From Candidatus Micrarchaeota archaeon (GTDB lineage: Archaea > Micrarchaeota > Micrarchaeia > Micrarchaeales > CABMGC01): a DNA stretch of 62,446 bases. The stretch is from the NCBI GenBank assembly GCA_021791245.1, contig JAJYWY010000003.1, positions 1 through 62,446 on the forward strand, read 5' to 3'. The notes under the pieces are model-generated. The model was not told the DNA's origin, made no database searches, and saw nothing but the letters and a program-made list of their open reading frames with translations. Below are positions 19,461 to 37,667 of this stretch, piece after piece; position 1 is the first letter of the stretch; every line of letters begins with the position of its first letter. The translations under genes and the position numbers were made by a program.

Positions 19461-19757
19461 TTAGAGAGTGTGGTTCTTTATCACTTTTATTGCCTTGTCT
19501 ATCGCTCTCCTTATATCATTTACATTCTTTGCGCCTGTGCATATTATCTTGCCGTTCTTGAAGATCAGCAAAGCGGTCTTTGGCTCATTTATCTTACATA
19601 TTGCACCTGGAAATTGCTCTGGCTCATAGTCTATGTCTGTTGAAGATTTAGCCACCCCGTAGAGGTCTATGTCAACACCGAGATCCGCGCTAGCAACTAT
19701 ATTCACTATTCTGTAGTCTGGATGCAACACTCTGGCTCTCTTCTTAGTTTTTGCCAT
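19461..19757 (-). CDS. single-repeat TATA-box-binding protein homologue ('half TBP', copy 1)
   Basis: 98 aa: IVNIVASADLGVDIDLYGVAKSSTDIDYEPEQFPGAICKINEPKTALLIFKNGKIICTGAKNVNDIRRAIDKAIKVI. This is exactly one TBP repeat (S1-H1-S2-S3-S4-S5-H2) with both DNA-kinking Phe positions (EQFPG, LIFxxGK). No second repeat is in frame or adjacent. Confidence 0.85.
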   Translation of the reverse strand: MAKTKKRARVLHPDYRIVNIVASADLGVDIDLYGVAKSSTDIDYEPEQFPGAICKINEPKTALLIFKNGKIICTGAKNVNDIRRAIDKAIKVIKNHTL

Positions 19758-19852
19758 TTAAACCGTTTATATATCCTTGCGCAAGGTATTTATAGATATT
19801 TTTATATATCACTTTGCTAAATATCCTGTTATCTGTTATATTAGTGTTTTAT

Positions 19853-20137
19853 ATGACCTCAAAAGGAATCTTCTCAAGAAGCACGCGGAAGCTTGCGAAG
19901 CATCACAAGCCATCAAGGCTTACTATAACCGAGAAGATAAAAAGCTTCAGGCCTGGAGACAAAGTAGTAGTTCTTCAAAAAGGCAATTTCCGCGACATAC
20001 CGCACCCAAGATATAGGGGCAGAGTCGGTGATGTTGTGGAGAGGAGGGGCTCGGCATATGTGGTAAAAATAGAGGTATCGAAATCAATAACTAGAAAGCT
20101 TATTGTACCACAGAGACATCTTGAGAGTGTGCGCTAA
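19853..20137 (+). CDS. rpl21e: 50S ribosomal protein L21e
   Basis: MTSKGIFSRSTRKLAKHHK...FRPGDKVVVL....DIPHPRYRGRVGDVVERRGSAYVVKI. I trimmed the start to ATG 19853 within ORF 19814..20137. Confidence 0.9.
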   Translation: MTSKGIFSRSTRKLAKHHKPSRLTITEKIKSFRPGDKVVVLQKGNFRDIPHPRYRGRVGDVVERRGSAYVVKIEVSKSITRKLIVPQRHLESVR

Positions 20138-20151
20138 TCTAAAAAATGTGA

Positions 20152-20346
20152 TTGCATATGGACGTAATTAAATCTAGCAATAAGAATCCTGTGGTGGTGG
20201 ACGTACTTGTTATAGACGATGTTCCATCTTTAGTACAGGAAAAATATAATCCTGACAAGCATGAGTTATTCATAAACGGGCTGAGAGGTACTCTAAGAAG
20301 GAAGCAGGAAGATAATAAAACAATAAGATTCGATGTGTATTTGTAA
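20152..20346 (+). CDS. hypothetical small protein
   Basis: 64-aa ORF 14 nt after rpl21e (TTG 20152 / ATG 20158). I recognised no motif. Confidence 0.35.
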   Translation: MHMDVIKSSNKNPVVVDVLVIDDVPSLVQEKYNPDKHELFINGLRGTLRRKQEDNKTIRFDVYL

Positions 20347-31109: not shown

Positions 31110-34100
31110 TTGCTTGAGGCATTAATACTAGGATTCATATCTATAATAGTGCCAGGGTTCTTCCTAGCACTAGCCCTGCTTAAGAAGACGAAGCTGCCAA
31201 TGTTCGAAATAGTTATAATGGGTTTCATCTTCGGACTTATATTTCCGCCAACAATGATCTGGCTGGAGGCATACCTAATAAACATTTCACATTTCTTTGC
31301 ATACTCCGAGGCCCTATATAACATAAATATAATAGTGCTTACGATAATAGGCGTTGCGCTCTGCTTCCAGCAGAAGGCATTCGATTTCGACACTAAAAAT
31401 CTTTTCCATCCATTCTCCAGGAACTCAGATGCAAAGTCAATGGCTTCCGAGGCAAAGATAGATATCGAGGTAATAAACAGGCACAAGAAAGAAGAAAACG
31501 ACCTGAAGAAAAGGCATGCTTCGGAGCTTGAACTTATAAATGACCCTGAACAGCGTTCGCGCGTAATGCAGCTTCACAATGACGAAGAAGAAAGGCTGCG
31601 CAGGGAGCATGAACAAGAAGAAGAGATGCTGCTCCAGAGCGTAAAGGAGAACGAGAGAAAGAAACCGTTCCTCAAGTCCGAGGCTTTCGTATTTGCAGTG
31701 CTTTTTGCCATAATGCTGATAACATTCTTCACCAGGATGGCTAGCATAGGCATTGCGCCGCATTTCTTCGAGTTCGATCCTTATTTCGACATGCAGAGCA
31801 CCACGTATATACTTACTTTTGGGCAGCAGCTCCTGCTCGAACACTCGGCATGGCCTACGCTTGTTGCAGGCACGGCGCATACAATACAGCCCATAGTGCC
31901 GTACCTAGAGGCATACTGGTATGACTTGGCGGCAGGGGTCGGAAATGGTGCATTAAACACCACTCTCCTCAGCGACGTAGGCTCCTTTTATCCTCCAATA
32001 ACAGCTGCGCTTCTTGTATTTGTAGTGTTTATGCTGCTTTACCATGATTACGGAAAACTGCCTGGGCTTCTAGGCGCTGCGCTTGTTGCAGGCATGCCTG
32101 CGCTAATAACAACGTTCATAGCAGGAGAGCAGCTGCTGGAGCCATGGGGGATATTCGCCATGTTCTTCTTCTACGCGACTTACCTTCTTGCGGTGCGGAA
32201 TCCAAAAGAATGGCGCTTCGCAGTTCTTGCAGGAATAGCGTTCGCGTCTAATTTCCTCGGGGCGCATTATTTCACAGTCACCACAGGGGTATTTGCAGCA
32301 TACATCTTAGTTCAGGGGCTCATAAATGTATTCAGGAAGAAGCGTGATATGAAGGAATTCTATATGATGAATATAATAGTGCTTGCCGTTATAACGGTCT
32401 TCTACATATTATACGCACCATACGGAGCTACCCTGTCCCAAAGCATATCCTCGATACTTTTTGTGCCCATCATAATAGCATTCCCATTGTTTGCACTCGT
32501 ATTCGTTGCACTCCTCGACTTCATACCGAAATATATGCAAGAACGGAAGATTATAAACAGTGTTGATATATTCACGCAGCTTGGCCTTCTTCTTGTTTTC
32601 GCATTGATAGCCGTACTTCTGATATTATTCACCCCTATTGGAAAGCCAATAAAGGCTTACGTAGCGCTTAGCGCGCATTACACTACGCCATCAATACCTT
32701 TGTTTATGACAGTGCAGGAATATGAGCCTACGGGAATAACATACAACTTCGGAGCACAGGGATTCGGTTATATAGGAGAAAGCATAGGAGGCATACCGAT
32801 AATAATATGGCTTGTGCTCGCTTTATTCACGGTGCTCGCACTTCTATCCATATACTACCAAAAATCAGATTCCAGCGTGCTTTACTTCGCTATGATAATA
32901 CCGCTTGCGGTTGCAGGCATGACAGAAGTCAAGTACCTTCCGCACTTCGGGGTTGGATACATAATAGCTATAGGCGTAATAGTAGGGATAATAATAGAGA
33001 TAGCCAAGCATGACTTCAAGCTCAACTTCAAGCTAGGTTCTCCAGGCTCATTCGATACGCACAAACTCGCAGAGAGGCTGATAATGGCGCTTGTATTCTT
33101 CCTGCTTATCATAGGGTTCCTTCCTTCCATGACATCGATAGTGTCTGCTGCCGCAAATCCGAACTGCAGTTCTATACTGAATAATAGCAACGGGCTTGGA
33201 TACACGCTATACTGCACTACTGTGCCAAACTACTGGATAAATGCTACTACATGGATGAGAGAGAATATAGGGCCTTACGCCCCAAGGATACTATCATGGT
33301 GGGATTATGGGGACTGGATAAACTGGTTCGGGAACAGCAATGCAGTGCTAAGGGGAGACAATGCCGTGGCTACTCTGGATTATGCGACGGCCGCGCAGTA
33401 TGTATTCAGCCCTGTTGACGGATACGGCCCTTCCACTCTTGCAAACTTCATGAACAAGATGCAGGCGCAATACGTGCTTTTCGACAACCAGTTGCAGCAG
33501 AAATGGGAGGCGCTTGATTTCCTTGCGTGCATAGACGTTAACCAGACTTCCATGGCATATGCTACGCAGCAAGGGAGCGCACAGGGCGTTCCTTACTTGT
33601 TAGGCACTTCTGCATGCGAGACAAGCCATGATCCGGTGTATGCACTTATACCAGTTACGCCAAGCAGCGTAAATGCATACTGCAACAACTTTGCGAACGG
33701 CACTGCAATACAGGCATTCCTAACATACGGAAGCAGCATTGAGAACCAGACCTACTGCGTACCCACATCAATTTTCTCCCAGGTCAAACCTGTTCCCATA
33801 TACAGCAGCAATGGAACCAAACTCAACGCGCTGATAATACCTACGCAGCAATTCTTCTACGGCACGGTAAGCTTATATGGGCAGAACTTCGCGGACTTCA
33901 TGGTCATATATACGCCTGGCGCAAACGGCACAATATCTGCCCCAACGCAGTTCTACAACTCTAACTATTACCAGGGATTCATGTTCGGAAAACTAAAGGG
34001 ATATACGCTTGCATATCCTTCCAATTTCTCAGGAATAAACTATATAAACAGCACAAACCCGGTAATGATATTCAGACTCGACAACTATTCTGGGGGCATT

Positions 34101-34157
34101 CCGCCGCACACCCCAAAGCCTTCATGGATAAACAACAACTTCACAGTTCCGGGATGA
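31110..34157 (+). CDS. aglB: oligosaccharyltransferase AglB (STT3 family) with N-terminal extension
   Basis: ILSWWDYGDWINW is the WWDYG catalytic motif, and HFFEFDPYFDMQST is the first-loop DxD-type motif (efDPYfnyR-like). There are about 13 or more TM segments and a sequon-rich C-terminal globular domain. TTG start. Confidence 0.9.
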   Translation: MLEALILGFISIIVPGFFLALALLKKTKLPMFEIVIMGFIFGLIFPPTMIWLEAYLINISHFFAYSEALYNINIIVLTIIGVALCFQQKAFDFDTKNLFHPFSRNSDAKSMASEAKIDIEVINRHKKEENDLKKRHASELELINDPEQRSRVMQLHNDEEERLRREHEQEEEMLLQSVKENERKKPFLKSEAFVFAVLFAIMLITFFTRMASIGIAPHFFEFDPYFDMQSTTYILTFGQQLLLEHSAWPTLVAGTAHTIQPIVPYLEAYWYDLAAGVGNGALNTTLLSDVGSFYPPITAALLVFVVFMLLYHDYGKLPGLLGAALVAGMPALITTFIAGEQLLEPWGIFAMFFFYATYLLAVRNPKEWRFAVLAGIAFASNFLGAHYFTVTTGVFAAYILVQGLINVFRKKRDMKEFYMMNIIVLAVITVFYILYAPYGATLSQSISSILFVPIIIAFPLFALVFVALLDFIPKYMQERKIINSVDIFTQLGLLLVFALIAVLLILFTPIGKPIKAYVALSAHYTTPSIPLFMTVQEYEPTGITYNFGAQGFGYIGESIGGIPIIIWLVLALFTVLALLSIYYQKSDSSVLYFAMIIPLAVAGMTEVKYLPHFGVGYIIAIGVIVGIIIEIAKHDFKLNFKLGSPGSFDTHKLAERLIMALVFFLLIIGFLPSMTSIVSAAANPNCSSILNNSNGLGYTLYCTTVPNYWINATTWMRENIGPYAPRILSWWDYGDWINWFGNSNAVLRGDNAVATLDYATAAQYVFSPVDGYGPSTLANFMNKMQAQYVLFDNQLQQKWEALDFLACIDVNQTSMAYATQQGSAQGVPYLLGTSACETSHDPVYALIPVTPSSVNAYCNNFANGTAIQAFLTYGSSIENQTYCVPTSIFSQVKPVPIYSSNGTKLNALIIPTQQFFYGTVSLYGQNFADFMVIYTPGANGTISAPTQFYNSNYYQGFMFGKLKGYTLAYPSNFSGINYINSTNPVMIFRLDNYSGGIPPHTPKPSWINNNFTVPG

Positions 34158-34205
34158 CCAACTGGTATTTAAGCTGAGAAACCCATTAATCCATAGGTAA
34201 TATAG

Positions 34206-35336
34206 ATGAAGGTACTAATAGCACAACCTTACCTTAACCTTAGAGGGGGCGCGGAAAGGGTGATCCTTGAGATTGCAAAGCACTACGATGCAAAAGTACT
34301 CACAATGGAGTATATAAAGAACTCCACTTTCCCTGAATTTCAGGATGTCGATATAGAGATAATCGGAAAGGACGTGCCTCTTGCCCAGATGCTGCCTTAT
34401 AGAGCGCACCAGGGACTTACTTACGGATACAACTTCTACAACTACAAGGAAACCGAGGATTACGACATAATCAACAGCCACATCTCCCCAAGCGAATGGA
34501 TAAGGCACAAGAACAAGCGCGTACTGTGGTACTGCCATACTCCGCCAAGGGAAGTCTATGACCTTTATACAGAGAGGATGAAAAACAGGAGCACATCAGA
34601 GAAGCTGATATATGCATCCTTCACCAAGGCATACAAGATTATATCGCGCGGAGTAGTTACTGATTTAGAATACATAGCGACAAACAGCAAAAACACGCGC
34701 GACAGGATAAAGAAATACTTCAACAGGGATGCAGCCATAGTAAGCCCCGGCATAGACGCAGGTGAATTCAGGAACAGCGAAGACGGGAAATATTTCCTGT
34801 ATCCTTCAAGAATAGTAGCCAACAAGAGGCAGGATTACGTAATAAATGCATTCAACAGGTTCGTCAGGATATCAGGCAACGAGAACTATAAGCTCGTGCT
34901 TGCAGGTTCGCTCTCGAATAACGATGAACATCACGAATACTACAAGAAGCTTATAAAGATGAAGACGCGGAATATATTGTTCAAGCTCAATGTAGGAGAC
35001 AAGGAGCTTAAAAACCTTTATTCAAACGCAACCGCGGTTCTCTTCGCAGCCATAAACGAGGACTTCGGAATAGTGCCTCTGGAGGCCATGGCGAGCAGCA
35101 AGCCGATAATATCCGTAAATGAGGGCGGGCCTAGGGAAACCATAGTGAATGGAATAACAGGGTATACTGTAGACTCTTATGAAGAGATGGCAGACAGGAT
35201 GAAGTTCATAGTGGAGCATCCATCTATAGCGGAGGAGATGGGCAGGCAGGGGAGGAAGCGCATTGAGAACAACTTCTCATGGAAAGTCTTCTTCAAGAAG
35301 TTCGATGCTCTTGCAAGAAAGGTTGCCGATATGTAG
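34206..35336 (+). CDS. GT4-family (group 1) glycosyltransferase
   Basis: NEDFGIVPLEAMASSKPIISVNEGGPRETI is the EX7E motif region of GT-B retaining glycosyltransferases. Confidence 0.85.
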   Translation: MKVLIAQPYLNLRGGAERVILEIAKHYDAKVLTMEYIKNSTFPEFQDVDIEIIGKDVPLAQMLPYRAHQGLTYGYNFYNYKETEDYDIINSHISPSEWIRHKNKRVLWYCHTPPREVYDLYTERMKNRSTSEKLIYASFTKAYKIISRGVVTDLEYIATNSKNTRDRIKKYFNRDAAIVSPGIDAGEFRNSEDGKYFLYPSRIVANKRQDYVINAFNRFVRISGNENYKLVLAGSLSNNDEHHEYYKKLIKMKTRNILFKLNVGDKELKNLYSNATAVLFAAINEDFGIVPLEAMASSKPIISVNEGGPRETIVNGITGYTVDSYEEMADRMKFIVEHPSIAEEMGRQGRKRIENNFSWKVFFKKFDALARKVADM

Positions 35337-35368: not shown

Positions 35369-36232
35369 ATGCTCCCGCAAATATGGCAAACGCATGGTGG
35401 TATAATGCATGAAAACAAAAGGAAGGAAAAAGTAGGCGAGATGCTCAGCGATCTCAAAAAGAGAACCAATGGATTCTACAGGATAATAAAAGAAGACATA
35501 AGAGAAATGAAGAGGATTGAGGATGTTGTTGAGAAGAATACAGATGCGGCGGATACGCTGCGCAGCTGCGGCAAGAGGGAAGAGGCGGCACACCTTATGG
35601 CTGCGCTTGGCCATGCGGTAAGGGAAACTGCTTATGGCAGCGGCATTGGAGAGCTCTCCGAAGACCCGTTCTGGAGAAAAAATACTAAATTGCAGAAAAC
35701 CGCTACAATATACATGTACGCTGCTGCCGAGATGGTTCACGTTTCATATTCTTCCCTGAAGGAATGGGACTTCCTTTCCGCTTCTGCATGGTGCGCCTAT
35801 GCCATAGATGTTATGGGCAGTTTCCCGCCTTCCCATACATCAATAAACCTGTGGCTTGAACTCAGGGAAAATGGGAAGAAGATAGAATTAGAATGGGACA
35901 ATACGACGCTTGGCTGCCCTGATGAAAAAATGCATAGCGGCTACATGGGTCGCACTATGCAGCCTCCTTCCCAAAAAGAGAAGGAAGGCGATGAATTTAG
36001 GGGCCAGGTTACAGAAAAGGTAAGAAACACCATACGGAGCGCGCTTAGGATAAAGAAGGACGACCTTGTAAGGATAATGGTAGAAGAGCATTACATAGAG
36101 ATTGTTATATCAGAGGAAGCATACGGCAAACTAAAGAATGGAGGGTTTATTAATTCCAGGAGGGATCTTTTGTCAAGATACCTTAAGAAGAATGTGGGCA
36201 TAATACCAAATATATCTATTCCGCCGCGTTAA
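35369..36232 (+). CDS. hypothetical protein
   Basis: 287-aa ORF, preferred over the antisense ORF 35177..35740 on composition. ATG 35405 (MHENKRK) is an alternative start. Confidence 0.4.
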   Translation: MLPQIWQTHGGIMHENKRKEKVGEMLSDLKKRTNGFYRIIKEDIREMKRIEDVVEKNTDAADTLRSCGKREEAAHLMAALGHAVRETAYGSGIGELSEDPFWRKNTKLQKTATIYMYAAAEMVHVSYSSLKEWDFLSASAWCAYAIDVMGSFPPSHTSINLWLELRENGKKIELEWDNTTLGCPDEKMHSGYMGRTMQPPSQKEKEGDEFRGQVTEKVRNTIRSALRIKKDDLVRIMVEEHYIEIVISEEAYGKLKNGGFINSRRDLLSRYLKKNVGIIPNISIPPR

Positions 36233-36262: not shown

Positions 36263-36568
36263 TCAGTCTATTACGTACTTTGATATTACCTTTGCGGTGT
36301 ATTCGAGCACCTTCTTCACGTTCGCTTCTGTGTTCGTGCCGGTGCAGATGAGCTTGCCATTCTTGAATAGTATTATCTTGGCCTTCGGCTCCTTAACCGC
36401 GAAGATTGCTCCTGGGAACTGCTCTGGCTCGTAGTCAACCTCCTTGACATTCTTAGATAGCGAATAAAGGTCTATAGTAGCATGCAGGTCAGCGCTGACA
36501 ACTATGTTCTGCACCTTTATGGCAGGTTTCATGTTAAGCTTCCGCTTTTGTTCGTTTTCTTTTGCCAT
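36263..36568 (-). CDS. single-repeat TATA-box-binding protein homologue ('half TBP', copy 2)
   Basis: MAKENEQKRKLNMKPAIKVQNIVVSADLHATIDLYSLSKNVKEVDYEPEQFPGAIFAVKEPKAKIILFKNGKLICTGTNTEANVKKVLEYTAKVISKYV. This is one TBP repeat preceded by a basic tail. ATG 36568 is preferred to TTG 36577. Confidence 0.85.
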   Translation of the reverse strand: MAKENEQKRKLNMKPAIKVQNIVVSADLHATIDLYSLSKNVKEVDYEPEQFPGAIFAVKEPKAKIILFKNGKLICTGTNTEANVKKVLEYTAKVISKYVID

Positions 36569-36794
36569 TAAACCCAATATTTATATCGCACACATATTTA
36601 TAAAGCCTATATGCACATTCGTAAAAGGCAATCTGGCAAAGGAATTTTTCCATGCGCTGATATGTTGGGTAAAAGCCAGCAAATCATATGCCGTTTTTCG
36701 CATCCTATATATTAATGAATACTCCAGAAACAGGCAATTCAAAAAATAAGCAATAGTTATATATTTTGTAGATAAACCATCTAAATGAAGATGT

Positions 36795-37667
36795 ATGCGT
36801 ATTAAGAGCCAATCTGCGATGGAGTACCTTATGACTTACGGATGGGCAATACTCATAATGGCAACAGTAATAGCTGCCTTATACGAACTTGGCGTATTCT
36901 CCATTAAAGGCCCAGCCGCTTCTCCAGGTTCTTGCCAGGTAAACAGGCCTGACGGACCTGGAACAGTAGACTTTATATCTCTCACAGGTCCATGCACAGG
37001 GCAGATGCCGCAGTATGTCGCACAGTTCAATCAGGTTAGTGTATGCACTTCTGGTAATGTCCCAATATATGTAACCTCGATAGGGGAGACAACAATGAAT
37101 CAGCTTACAATAACTGCGTGGGTGTATATAACTAGCGACTCGAATACTAATGGCCTCCTTCATTTAACTACCAATAATTGTGTGCCAGGTAATTTTTGCG
37201 GTATATGGATTAATGGTGCCTCTCACGTAAATATCGGCGCAGGCGATACCCAGGCCAACTATCCGTCAAACATTATTCCGGATAGTTGGTCATTTATTGC
37301 GATAGTACTTAATAATTTAGGCGGTGCAAAAGCATATTTGAATGGCAATCCTGGCACACCAGCTACCTGGAGCGGACCTCTGACAGGCGTAAGCTCTTTC
37401 AACATGCTTGGATACCTTAACGGATGCCCGGATACTTCAGCAGCAAGCATTTCCAACGTCCAAATCTACAACACTGCATTATCCCAAAATGACATTATAG
37501 CGCTTTACCAGGAAGGAATAGGTGGTGCACCCATTAATCTGCAGCATCTTGTAGGATGGTGGCCTCTTAACGGCAATGCAAATGACTATAGCGGAAACGG
37601 CAACGATGGGGCAGCGTCAAACTTAATATATATACAGAATTGGCAGACAGGATACACGGCACCTTGA
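36795..37667 (+). CDS. class III signal peptide (pilin-like) protein with LamG/concanavalin-A-like lectin domain
   Basis: The N-terminus is MRIKSQSAMEYLMTYGWAILIMATVIAALYELGVF. The body reads LTITAWVY.......GLLHL....WSFIAIVLNN.GGAKAYLNG........ISNVQIYNTALSQNDIIALYQEG, which is the LamG pattern. Confidence 0.7.
   Translation: MRIKSQSAMEYLMTYGWAILIMATVIAALYELGVFSIKGPAASPGSCQVNRPDGPGTVDFISLTGPCTGQMPQYVAQFNQVSVCTSGNVPIYVTSIGETTMNQLTITAWVYITSDSNTNGLLHLTTNNCVPGNFCGIWINGASHVNIGAGDTQANYPSNIIPDSWSFIAIVLNNLGGAKAYLNGNPGTPATWSGPLTGVSSFNMLGYLNGCPDTSAASISNVQIYNTALSQNDIIALYQEGIGGAPINLQHLVGWWPLNGNANDYSGNGNDGAASNLIYIQNWQTGYTAP

What the first reader, a model, noticed from the sequence alone, without database searches (positions are those of the whole stretch)
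36263..36568. Stand-alone single-repeat TBP ('half TBP'), copy 2, with basic N-terminal tail
This is the second one-repeat TBP homologue: VQNIVVSADLHATIDLYSLSKNVKEVDYEPEQFPGAIFAVKEPKAKIILFKNGKLICTGTNTEANVKKVLEYTAKVI. Unlike copy 1 it carries a Lys/Glu-rich N-terminal tail (MAKENEQKRKLNMK). It is divergently transcribed from a pilin-like adhesin gene across an AT-rich 220-nt region. The differences between the copies (H1 helix, stirrup loop, tail) are what one would expect if each half substitutes for one side of the asymmetric TBP saddle, one facing TFB and the other not.
Basis: partly seen in the sequence, partly recalled or inferred. Interest (0 to 1): 0.7.

Follow-up and report, generated by a model that had tools for sequence, protein, structure and literature searches.

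The report
Half of a split TATA-binding protein
This is a real, conserved gene for a single-repeat "half" of the archaeal TATA-binding protein; it and a second half-gene 17 kb away probably stand in for the usual two-repeat TBP in one lineage of tiny Micrarchaeota archaea, a natural test of the idea that TBP began as a dimer of single domains.

Summary
The ORF at 36263-36568 (-) is real. It encodes 101 aa with one complete TBP repeat (Pfam E=1.4e-23) and a confident TBP-repeat model (rmsd about 0.8-1.3 A to solved TBPs). A second half ("c1", 19461-19757, 44% identical) is the only other TBP repeat in the window. Both belong to large families of about 100-aa proteins in Micrarchaeota. They co-occur in at least six MAGs and are under purifying selection (median dN/dS 0.09 and 0.13). 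Related Micrarchaeota and Diapherotrites keep a fused two-repeat TBP, always divergent from the L21e operon. Here c1 occupies that ancestral slot. c2 sits at a new, conserved locus, convergent with a GT1 glycosyltransferase in all 21 GT1-bearing orthologous loci. The intercalating Phe pair, the S1 Asn/Val and the acidic stirrup DYEPEQFPGA are invariant in both halves. Best reading: c2 is one subunit of a split, most likely heterodimeric, TBP. N-versus-C ancestry is only weakly indicated (c1 N-like, c2 C-like). I could not directly verify that these genomes lack a fused TBP. I found no published description of this.

The parts
36263..36568 (-). c2: CDS (stop codon included) of the 101-aa single-repeat TBP, the finding itself
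   Evidence: ORF and translation. Pfam TBP E=1.4e-23, one repeat. AF2 pLDDT 86.7 with S1-H1-S2-S3-S4-S5-H2 topology. Foldseek top 44 hits are all TBPs. Median dN/dS 0.09.
36410..36436 (-). Codons for residues 45-53, DYEPEQFPG: the stirrup loop with the acidic E-P-E motif and the first intercalating Phe (F51)
   Evidence: Invariant across 141 aligned c2 and c1 proteins and identical in both family consensuses. The functional role is inferred from established TBP-TFB/TFIIB structures.
36527..36568 (-). Codons for residues 1-14 (MAKENEQKRKLNMK): Lys/Glu-rich N-terminal extension plus the start of the pre-S1 segment
   Evidence: Mean pLDDT 56 for residues 1-10. KR.LN(M/L)KP is conserved in the closest orthologues L008, L012 and L017. 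It is analogous to the basic inter-repeat linker of fused TBPs.
36595..36604 (-). TATA-like box 1 (TTTATAAATA), -36 to -27 from the ATG; candidate promoter TATA box (inferred)
   Evidence: Read from the sequence. The same two-box layout stands upstream of c1.
36578..36587 (-). TATA-like box 2 (GATATAAATA), -19 to -10 from the ATG; role unknown, possibly an autoregulatory TBP site (speculative)
   Evidence: Read from the sequence. c1 has GATATATAAA at the equivalent place, followed by the same GGTTTA(A)ATGGCAAAA. None of 28 other window genes inspected shows this.
19461..19757 (-). c1: the partner half-TBP gene (98 aa), at the ancestral TBP locus
   Evidence: tblastn 44% identity, E=4e-27. Family of at least 120 single-repeat orthologues. 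Divergent from L21e, like the fused TBPs of Anstonellaceae and Diapherotrites.
19814..20137 (+). Ribosomal protein L21e gene: the marker of the ancestral TBP locus
   Evidence: Pfam Ribosomal_L21e. L21e lies upstream and divergent in 23 of 39 fused-TBP loci by tblastn (plus L006 by Pfam) and in every L21e-bearing c1-type locus.
34206..35336 (+). GT1/GT4 glycosyltransferase gene: the conserved convergent downstream neighbour of c2
   Evidence: Pfam Glycos_transf_1. Downstream and convergent in all 21 GT1-bearing c2-type GTDB loci and in L004 and L127.
35369..36232 (+). 287-aa ORF with no Pfam match, lying between c2 and the glycosyltransferase; lineage-specific
   Evidence: No Pfam hit. No homologue in any of the 119 related loci. 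In most orthologous loci c2 and GT1 are 8-100 nt apart.
36795..37667 (+). Pilin-like Laminin_G_3 protein gene, divergent from c2
   Evidence: Pfam Laminin_G_3 E=4e-14. A neighbour in only some c2 loci (L012, L040, L043, L120), so probably not functionally linked.

Best explanation
c2 is a functional gene for one TBP repeat. It acts as one subunit of a split TATA-binding protein. In this Micrarchaeota lineage the ancestral fused two-repeat TBP gene, which lies divergent from the L21e-RpoF operon, has been reduced to a single repeat (c1). A second single-repeat gene (c2) has become fixed at a new locus next to a glycosyltransferase gene. Each half keeps the residues that a TBP repeat uses to bind the minor groove and to present an acidic stirrup to TFB. 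Two halves must pair through their exposed S1 edge strands to rebuild the ten-stranded saddle. The most likely pairing is c1:c2, giving a heterodimeric TBP whose two sides have diverged (48% identity) far more than the two repeats of the fused TBPs in sister lineages (about 69%). Promoter polarity would still be set by TFB and the BRE, because both stirrups are identical. Shown here: gene reality, fold, conservation, purifying selection, co-occurrence, synteny, and fused relatives. Inferred: dimerisation, heterodimer rather than homodimers, DNA and TFB binding, and absence of any fused TBP in the same genome.
For: c2 is a single complete TBP repeat by Pfam, by PDB sequence search (E=8e-36 to the S. 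acidocaldarius TBP), and by AF2 plus Foldseek. F51, F68, V23, K69-K72 and the whole D45-I55 stirrup are invariant; N21 and T76 are at least 90% conserved. The c2 family is monophyletic in 100 of 100 NJ bootstraps, with 82% mean within-family identity and median dN/dS 0.09 (maximum 0.22). c1 has median dN/dS 0.13. c1 and c2 carry the same NCBI locus-tag prefixes in six MAGs: RXR32, ACP5K9, ACP5RT, QW774, ACP5P2 and ACP5RF. They also lie 17 kb apart in this window. Fused TBPs exist in Anstonellaceae, other Micrarchaeota and Diapherotrites, and sit divergent from L21e. c1 sits in exactly that position, so the fused gene has been replaced there by a half. In an exhaustive search of 1.84 billion representatives, the only single-repeat proteins among the best 150 hits are c1/c2 kin. 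The complete genome of the Micrarchaeon Mia14 has exactly 2 members of arCOG01764 (TBP), where most DPANN genomes have 1 (PMC5498576 Suppl. Data 4). This fits two halves and no third TBP. c1 and c2 share an unusual 5' layout of two TATA-like boxes followed by GGTTTA(A)ATGGCAAAA, which is compatible with co-regulation. NCBIfam full-length profiles place c2 on the C-terminal repeat (9 of 10 models) and c1 on the N-terminal repeat (its top 4). At the two most N/C-diagnostic columns where the halves differ, c1 has the N state (E in S1, A in S4) and c2 the C state (Q, V).
Against: I have no direct evidence of dimerisation or of a 1:1 complex. The tools could not model a two-chain complex. Absence of a fused TBP from c1/c2 genomes was not verified on a whole genome: the genome scan returned one locus per assembly. 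I did not confirm that the two Mia14 arCOG01764 proteins are halves. The S1 edge and both stirrups are nearly the same in c1 and c2, so homodimers are sterically just as plausible. N/C ancestry is weak: 2-3 bits in HMM tests, a naive column log-odds that makes both halves slightly N-like, and only 44% NJ support for c1+c2 as a clade. No expression data were available.
Confidence: 0.6

Rival explanations
1. Two homodimeric TBPs. c1 homodimers would be the housekeeping symmetric TBP, and c2 homodimers an alternative TBP used at a subset of promoters, like the multiple TBP paralogues of haloarchaea. All three dimers (c1c1, c1c2, c2c2) might also co-exist.
For: Both halves keep every DNA-contact and stirrup residue, so either could form a symmetric saddle. 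c1 stays close to the repeat consensus of fused TBPs, while c2 carries many fixed derived substitutions in S1, H1, S4 and H2, as a specialised paralogue would. Single-repeat genes at the L21e locus occur in other Micrarchaeia lineages, and no partner was seen for them in my sample (L056, L059, L073, L089, L109).
Against: c2 is as strongly constrained as c1 (dN/dS 0.09 against 0.13). It has a fixed locus throughout the clade (all 21 GT1-bearing loci), and both halves were found in six MAGs. Accessory TBP paralogues are usually patchy. The shared promoter layout suggests co-expression. My sampling could not show that the partner-less lineages really lack a partner: a separate single-repeat family (c3: L044, L071, L092, L105, L126) exists.
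Confidence: 0.22
2. c2 is a regulator rather than a saddle subunit. It would titrate TFB through its stirrup, or cap c1, as a decoy that tunes initiation.
For: The stirrup is intact. About half of the c2 orthologues appear to have a weak non-canonical ACG start, which would give low, regulator-like abundance. The convex-surface helix H2 is the most c2-specific region.
Against: A decoy would not need the concave-face DNA-binding residues (N21, V23, F51, F68, T76), yet they are invariant or nearly so. No known archaeal system works this way.
Confidence: 0.1
3. c2 is a decaying remnant of a duplicated TBP gene and has no function.
For: It is half the length of a normal TBP, and NCBI's pipeline calls its orthologues 'hypothetical protein' because they miss the whole-protein cut-offs (83 bits against at least 181).
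Against: There are hundreds of intact orthologues, dN/dS is about 0.09, the locus is conserved, the fold model is confident, and there are no frameshifts or adjacent repeat debris.
Confidence: 0.02

Closest known systems
Canonical archaeal TBP (two tandem PF00352 repeats in one chain; e.g. P. woesei 1PCZ/1AIS, S. acidocaldarius 1MP9, M. jannaschii 2Z8U)
   Same: Same repeat fold and topology. c2 is 31-39% identical to single repeats of the solved TBPs. It has the same Phe pair, the same S1 Asn/Val, and the same YEPEQFPG stirrup that binds TFB.
   Different: It has only one repeat per polypeptide. It would need a second subunit encoded 17 kb away. It fails the whole-protein thresholds of all ten NCBIfam TBP models.
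Fused TBPs of sister Micrarchaeota (Anstonellaceae P0389, groundwater lineages) and Diapherotrites (P0076)
   Same: These are the closest full-length relatives: 43-49% identity to c2 and up to 58% to c1. They share the DPANN-specific YEPEQFPGA and LFKNGK motifs. c1 sits at the same L21e-divergent locus.
   Different: They are single genes whose two repeats are about 69% identical to each other, which points to concerted evolution. c1 and c2 are separate genes and only 48% identical.
Monopartite TBP-domain proteins of Thermococcales (Brindefalk et al. 2013, PMC3597702, Table 3)
   Same: Stand-alone proteins of about 90-100 aa made of one TBP domain.
   Different: According to the paper, those are very distant from TBP (for example 14 of 25 positives over short local alignments), form their own cluster, and co-exist with a normal TBP. 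c2 is an unmistakable TBP repeat (Pfam E=1e-23), it comes as a conserved pair, and its partner occupies the TBP locus.
Halobacterial TbpA-type truncated TBPs (cited in PMC3597702)
   Same: Single TBP repeat that clusters with genuine TBP repeats.
   Different: According to the paper, TbpA is very similar to full-length TBPs of the same species, is non-essential, and sits among several full-length paralogues. For c2 the nearest full-length TBP is at most about 50% identical and comes from another lineage.
Split informational genes of DPANN archaea (e.g. N. equitans reverse gyrase and alanyl-tRNA synthetase; split Dph1/2; reviewed in PMC6349945)
   Same: A protein encoded by one gene in relatives is encoded here by two separate genes in a reduced-genome DPANN lineage.
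   Different: The two pieces are paralogous repeats rather than different parts of a protein. The state could therefore have arisen by fission, or by repeat collapse followed by duplication. TBP is not among the split genes listed in that review.

Membership tests
TBP domain family (Pfam PF00352) | Significant match to the repeat profile above the gathering score | tested here: met
   83 bits against a cut-off of 22.9, E=1.4e-23, covering profile positions 2-85 of 85.
TBP domain family (Pfam PF00352) | Repeat fold S1-H1-S2-S3-S4-S5-H2 | tested here: met
   The AF2 model (pLDDT 86.7) has strands at 22-27, 44-46, 54-58, 63-67 and 72-78 and helices at 34-40 and 81-98. Foldseek gives rmsd 0.8-1.3 A over about 82 residues to human, yeast, plant and archaeal TBPs.
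Canonical TBP (NCBIfam NF001592-NF001601 / PRK00394) | Two tandem repeats in one polypeptide, scoring above the whole-protein cut-off | tested here: not met
   There is one repeat only. The best NCBIfam score is 83 bits against a cut-off of 181, and all ten models fail. No second repeat lies nearby in any frame.
Canonical TBP (NCBIfam NF001592-NF001601 / PRK00394) | DNA-contact residues of a repeat: the two intercalating Phe, the S1 Asn and Val, and the S5 Thr | tested here: met
   F51, F68 and V23 are invariant; N21 and T76 are at least 90% conserved in 141 sequences. The mapping to yeast F190/F207/N159/V161/T215 rests on established knowledge.
Canonical TBP (NCBIfam NF001592-NF001601 / PRK00394) | Acidic stirrup (E-P-E) used by the C-terminal repeat to bind TFB/TFIIB | tested here: met
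   D45-Y-E-P-E-Q-F-P-G-A-I55 is invariant. It is equally present in c1, so it does not discriminate between the halves.
Canonical TBP (NCBIfam NF001592-NF001601 / PRK00394) | Binds the TATA box and recruits TFB and RNA polymerase | not testable with these tools
   This needs biochemistry.
Split-gene pair replacing a fused gene | Relatives encode the protein as one gene | tested here: met
   Fused TBPs of 186-200 aa occur in Anstonellaceae, other Micrarchaeota and Diapherotrites.
Split-gene pair replacing a fused gene | Both pieces co-occur in the same genomes | tested here: met
   The window carries both, and six MAGs share locus-tag prefixes between the two families. A systematic census was not possible.
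Split-gene pair replacing a fused gene | No fused copy remains in those genomes | tested here: inconclusive
   c1 replaces the fused gene at the ancestral locus. The complete Mia14 genome has exactly 2 arCOG01764 proteins. However, no whole genome carrying c1 and c2 could be scanned here.
Split-gene pair replacing a fused gene | The pieces correspond to the N- and C-terminal parts of the fused protein | tested here: inconclusive
   In favour: NCBIfam alignments (c2 on the C half in 9 of 10 models; c1 on the N half in its top 4), the PDB domain scores, the HMM difference (c1 N>C in 100% of members, c2 C>N in 90%, but only 2-3 bits), and the two diagnostic columns. Against or neutral: distance quartets and the NJ tree are uninformative because fused relatives have homogenised repeats.
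Thermococcales monopartite TBP-domain proteins (PMC3597702) | Highly diverged from TBP, a separate cluster, co-existing with a full TBP | tested here: not met
   c2 is a close TBP-repeat homologue: E=1e-23 to Pfam and up to 49% identity to fused TBPs. I made no direct sequence comparison with that family.

The most novel reading that the evidence does not exclude
A whole archaeal lineage (Micrarchaeales/Micrarchaeaceae-like Micrarchaeota) has no fused TBP. It initiates all transcription with an obligate heterodimer of two separately encoded single-repeat proteins, derived secondarily from a fused TBP. This would reverse the ancient duplication-fusion that created TBP. It would also provide a natural system in which the two sides of the saddle evolve, and can be expressed, independently. 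In many members the c2 subunit might be throttled by a conserved non-canonical ACG start codon.
Probability: 0.5. Interest if true: 0.8.

Novelty: new variant of a known kind. Interest (0 to 1): 0.66.

Why it matters
TBP is the textbook example of a pseudo-symmetric protein thought to descend from a homodimer of single domains. No cellular organism is known to run its basal transcription on separate TBP halves. The single-domain TBP proteins described so far, in Thermococcales and as haloarchaeal TbpA, are either very divergent or accessory. A lineage where the fused gene has been replaced by two conserved half-genes would make several questions directly testable. Can a single repeat dimerise and bend DNA? 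How much asymmetry does the saddle need? How is stoichiometry controlled? Does separating the repeats free them from the concerted evolution seen in sister lineages (about 69% repeat identity, against 48% between the halves)? There is also a practical point: NCBI's pipeline names these essential-looking genes 'hypothetical protein', so genome surveys can miscount TBP in DPANN archaea.

Tried and rejected
1. Distance-based quartets (c1, c2, N, C) give c1c2|NC in 84 of 96 and 110 of 112 cases. The control among fused TBPs also groups repeats within a protein (54-68% of pairs), so the test is uninformative.

2. The NJ tree with 100 bootstraps supports c2 at 100, but c1 at only 55 and c1+c2 at only 44. 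It does not resolve the origin.

3. I looked for full-length proteins whose repeats look like c1 followed by c2, as fission intermediates. The candidates (P0244, P0245, P0392, P0416-P0425) are ordinary Diapherotrites-type TBPs with Lys-rich tails.

4. I tested a 'breakpoint inside the gene' model, in which the C-half keeps the old downstream neighbour. It is rejected, because GT1 is downstream of a fused TBP in 0 of 39 loci.

5. The genome contigs pattern scan (YEPEQFPGA) was meant as a per-genome census.

6. I tried to match c1 and c2 on the same long contig with the look-up of encoding contigs (P0101 against P0240). They lie on different records.

7. The supplement of Krause et al. 2022 (Ca. 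Micrarchaeum harzensis omics) was searched for TBP expression. Nothing was found in the stored, truncated files. Baker et al. 2010 is not held.

8. Literature searches for split, half or single-repeat TBP in DPANN or Micrarchaeota found no prior description.

9. The pseudogene reading is rejected by the conservation and dN/dS data.

Full report
OBSERVATION. The region holds an ORF on the minus strand (36263-36577), with an ATG at 36568. Pfam scores it as one complete TBP repeat: PF00352, E=1.4e-23, 83 bits against a cut-off of 22.9, profile positions 2-85 of 85. A tblastn search and a maximum-sensitivity HMM scan of all six frames find exactly two TBP repeats in the 62-kb window. One is this gene ("c2"); the other is at 19461-19757 (-) ("c1", 98 aa, 44% identical). 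No degenerate second repeat lies next to either. The gene is divergent from a pilin-like Laminin_G_3 gene across 226 nt of 68% A+T. One descriptive claim is wrong: c1 also starts with a basic tail (MAKTKKRARVLH). Part of the c2 'tail' is the pre-S1 segment that every TBP repeat has.

THE PROTEIN. AlphaFold2, run on a 141-sequence alignment, gives a confident model (pLDDT 86.7). Only the first 10 or so residues are poorly defined. The model has the S1-H1-S2-S3-S4-S5-H2 topology of a TBP repeat. Foldseek against the PDB returns TBPs as its top 44 hits, with rmsd 0.8-1.3 A over about 82 residues and TM-score about 0.78 normalised to the query. By sequence, the best solved relatives are the three archaeal TBPs (E=8e-36 to 5e-32). 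Several residues are invariant or nearly so across the c2 and c1 families. By established TBP structural knowledge these matter for function: the two intercalating Phe (F51, F68), the S1 Asn/Val (N21, V23), the S5 Thr (T76), and the stirrup D45-YEPEQFPGA-I55. The protein fails all ten NCBIfam whole-protein TBP models (83 bits against at least 181). This explains why NCBI calls its orthologues 'hypothetical protein' while JGI calls them TBP.

WHO HAS IT. The window is from a Micrarchaeota (DPANN) archaeon, with 43% G+C. c2 has hundreds of orthologues of about 100-130 aa at 68-85% identity in Micrarchaeota, Micrarchaeia and Micrarchaeaceae MAGs; some are mislabelled Marsarchaeota. c1 has a similarly large family. 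In an exhaustive HMMER search of 1.84 billion representative proteins, the only single-repeat proteins among the best 150 hits are c1/c2 kin. All other hits have two repeats, or occasionally three or four. The two families co-occur. They lie 17 kb apart in this window. Six NCBI MAGs carry both, as shown by the shared locus-tag prefixes RXR32, ACP5K9, ACP5RT, QW774, ACP5P2 and ACP5RF. Both families are under purifying selection. Median pairwise dN/dS is 0.09 for c2 (maximum 0.22) and 0.13 for c1 (maximum 0.23), and mean within-family identity is 82% for each.

RELATIVES WITH A FUSED GENE, AND SYNTENY. Other Micrarchaeota (Anstonellaceae, Anstonellales, groundwater lineages) and Diapherotrites encode ordinary two-repeat TBPs of 186-200 aa. 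In Anstonellaceae (L001-L003) and Diapherotrites (L006-L007) that gene is divergently transcribed from the L21e-RpoF-DUF655-KsgA operon. By tblastn, L21e is upstream and divergent in 23 of 39 fused-TBP loci from a scan of GTDB genomes. In the window, c1 is in exactly this position: c1 at 19461-19757 (-) and L21e at 19814-20137 (+). The same holds in every c1-type locus where L21e was detected, with gaps of 70-130 nt. So the ancestral TBP gene has been replaced in situ by a one-repeat gene. c2 is elsewhere. In all 21 GT1-bearing c2-type GTDB loci, and in L004 and L127, it is followed by a convergent GT1/GT4 glycosyltransferase gene, usually 8-100 nt away. In the window, a lineage-specific 287-aa ORF (35369-36232) is inserted between them. 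GT1 is never downstream of a fused TBP (0 of 39). The split was therefore not a simple breakpoint inside the gene: c2 arose by duplication or relocation.

WHICH HALF IS WHICH. I could not settle this. The fused TBPs of the closest lineages have N and C repeats that are about 69% identical to each other, so their repeats have been homogenised. Consequently distance quartets and an NJ tree group repeats by lineage, and the same happens among control pairs of fused TBPs. Bootstrap support is 100 for c2, 55 for c1 and 44 for c1+c2. Against well-differentiated archaeal TBPs there is a consistent but weak signal. c1 scores higher on the N repeat of all three solved archaeal TBPs. c2 scores higher on the C repeat of the P. 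woesei TBP (65.7 against 47.2 bits), marginally higher for M. jannaschii, and lower for S. acidocaldarius. N- and C-repeat HMMs favour N for 100% of c1 members and C for 90% of c2 members, but only by 2-3 bits. In NCBIfam full-length profiles, c2 aligns to the C-terminal half in 9 of 10 models, and c1 aligns to the N-terminal half in its four best models. At the two most diagnostic columns where the halves differ, c1 has the N state and c2 the C state: E/Q in S1 and A/V in S4. I therefore treat 'c1 = N-like, c2 = C-like' as probable but unproven. Two histories remain open. One is duplication followed by complementary loss of repeats. The other is collapse of two near-identical repeats into one by intragenic recombination, followed by duplication.

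WHERE THE HALVES DIFFER. Fixed family-specific differences (at least 80% conserved in each family) lie in five places: S1 (ENIVAS against QNIVVS), H1 (GV..LDLY.IA against HA.IDLY.LS), the start of S3 (AIC against AIF), S4 (ALLLF against VIILF), and H2 (TGAKTEaDIrrAIdQV against TG.nTEanIkkVL.YA). c1 stays close to the consensus of fused-TBP repeats, and c2 is the derived partner. With symmetric stirrups, polarity of the pre-initiation complex would have to come from TFB and the BRE, as is established for other archaea.

MECHANISM. A single TBP repeat exposes its S1 edge strand and offers only half a saddle, so it must dimerise to bind a TATA box. The co-retention of two diverged halves, their equal constraint and their fixed loci all favour a c1:c2 heterodimer acting as the cell's TBP (confidence about 0.6). 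So does the replacement of the fused gene at its own locus. The count of two arCOG01764 proteins in the closed Mia14 genome points the same way (PMC5498576 Suppl. Data 4). The main rival is two homodimeric TBPs, or a mixture of dimers (about 0.2). A decoy or regulator role (about 0.1) fits poorly with the intact DNA-binding face. A pseudogene is excluded. The two genes share an unusual 5' region: TTTATAAATA or TCTATAAATA, then GATATA(T)AAA, then GGTTTA(A)ATGGCAAAA. None of 28 other window genes inspected has this. It may reflect common descent of the 5' end, or co-regulation. The box at -19 to -10 could be a site of autoregulation, but this is speculative.

COMPARISON WITH WHAT IS KNOWN. Brindefalk et al. 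2013 (PMC3597702) catalogued monopartite TBP-domain proteins only in Halobacteria and in Thermococcales. The halobacterial TbpA is close to resident full-length TBPs and is non-essential. The Thermococcales proteins are very divergent and sit alongside a normal TBP. Reviews of DPANN split genes list reverse gyrase, tRNA synthetases and Dph1/2, but not TBP. A comparative study simply counts TBP as 'conserved' in DPANN. Full-text searches for split, half or single-repeat TBP found nothing further. The library lacks most subscription journals, so I cannot exclude prior mention elsewhere. I classify this as a new variant of a known kind: a TBP built from two separately encoded repeats.

LIMITS. 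I had no whole-genome census and no two-chain structure prediction. I also had no expression data, and phylogeny was limited to NJ. I did not confirm that the two Mia14 arCOG01764 proteins are single-repeat.

Noticed in passing
Orthologues of window 36566-36568 in loci L013, L019, L028, L040, L065, L084, L086, L087, L104, L107, L120 (also L058, L113): In about half of the c2 orthologues, the codon aligned with the window's ATG start is ACG. It lies 2-3 nt after a GGTGAT/GGTGTT Shine-Dalgarno-like motif and is followed by conserved GCA GCA AAG. Four orthologues (L019, L058, L065, L113) have no ATG, GTG or TTG at all between the upstream stop codon and strand S1. c1 orthologues have the same motif but a normal ATG or TTG. 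This could be a conserved non-canonical start that throttles c2 translation.
   Followed up: partly
window 19758-19810 and 36569-36610: The 5' regions of the two half-TBP genes resemble each other. Each has two TATA-like boxes followed by GGTTTA(A)ATGGCAAAA, and none of 28 other window genes inspected shows this. The cause could be common descent of the 5' end or shared (auto)regulation.
   Followed up: partly
P0389, P0465, P0490 and 112 other fused TBPs; loci L011-L123: The fused TBPs of other Micrarchaeota have N- and C-terminal repeats that are about 69% identical on average, and nearly identical over 40 residues in Anstonellaceae P0389. Across diverse TBPs the figure is about 41%. This suggests ongoing intragenic homogenisation, which could also favour collapse of the two repeats into one.
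   Followed up: partly
L056, L059, L073, L089, L109 (next to L21e); L044, L071, L092, L105, L126 (elsewhere): There are further single-repeat TBP genes, in other Micrarchaeia lineages, that belong to neither c1 nor c2. One set sits at the L21e locus. A distinct family ('c3', bootstrap 100) has the motif AIMRLKEIGTT and lies at another locus. TBP splitting may have happened more than once, or may be older and wider than the c1/c2 clade.
   Followed up: partly
P0241, P0392, P0424, P0425, P0494 (metagenome proteins): These are predicted TBPs with three tandem repeats (272-283 aa). They could be real or could be assembly artefacts of near-identical repeats.
   Followed up: no
window 35369-36232 (+): A 287-aa ORF with no Pfam match is inserted between c2 and the glycosyltransferase gene. 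It has no homologue in any of the 119 related loci, so it looks like a lineage-specific insertion.
   Followed up: partly
window 31110-35336; L006/L007, L035, L070: An AglB/STT3 oligosaccharyltransferase and a glycosyltransferase gene lie just downstream of c2. In some Diapherotrites loci an AglB homologue lies 0.1-2.7 kb downstream of the fused TBP, in a different orientation. This may be coincidence.
   Followed up: partly
window 20152-20346 (+): Downstream of L21e, where relatives have RpoF (Rpb4) and DUF655, the window has only a 64-aa ORF. A 75-aa ORF occupies the same spot in L135 and L136. It may be a reduced or divergent RpoF.
   Followed up: no
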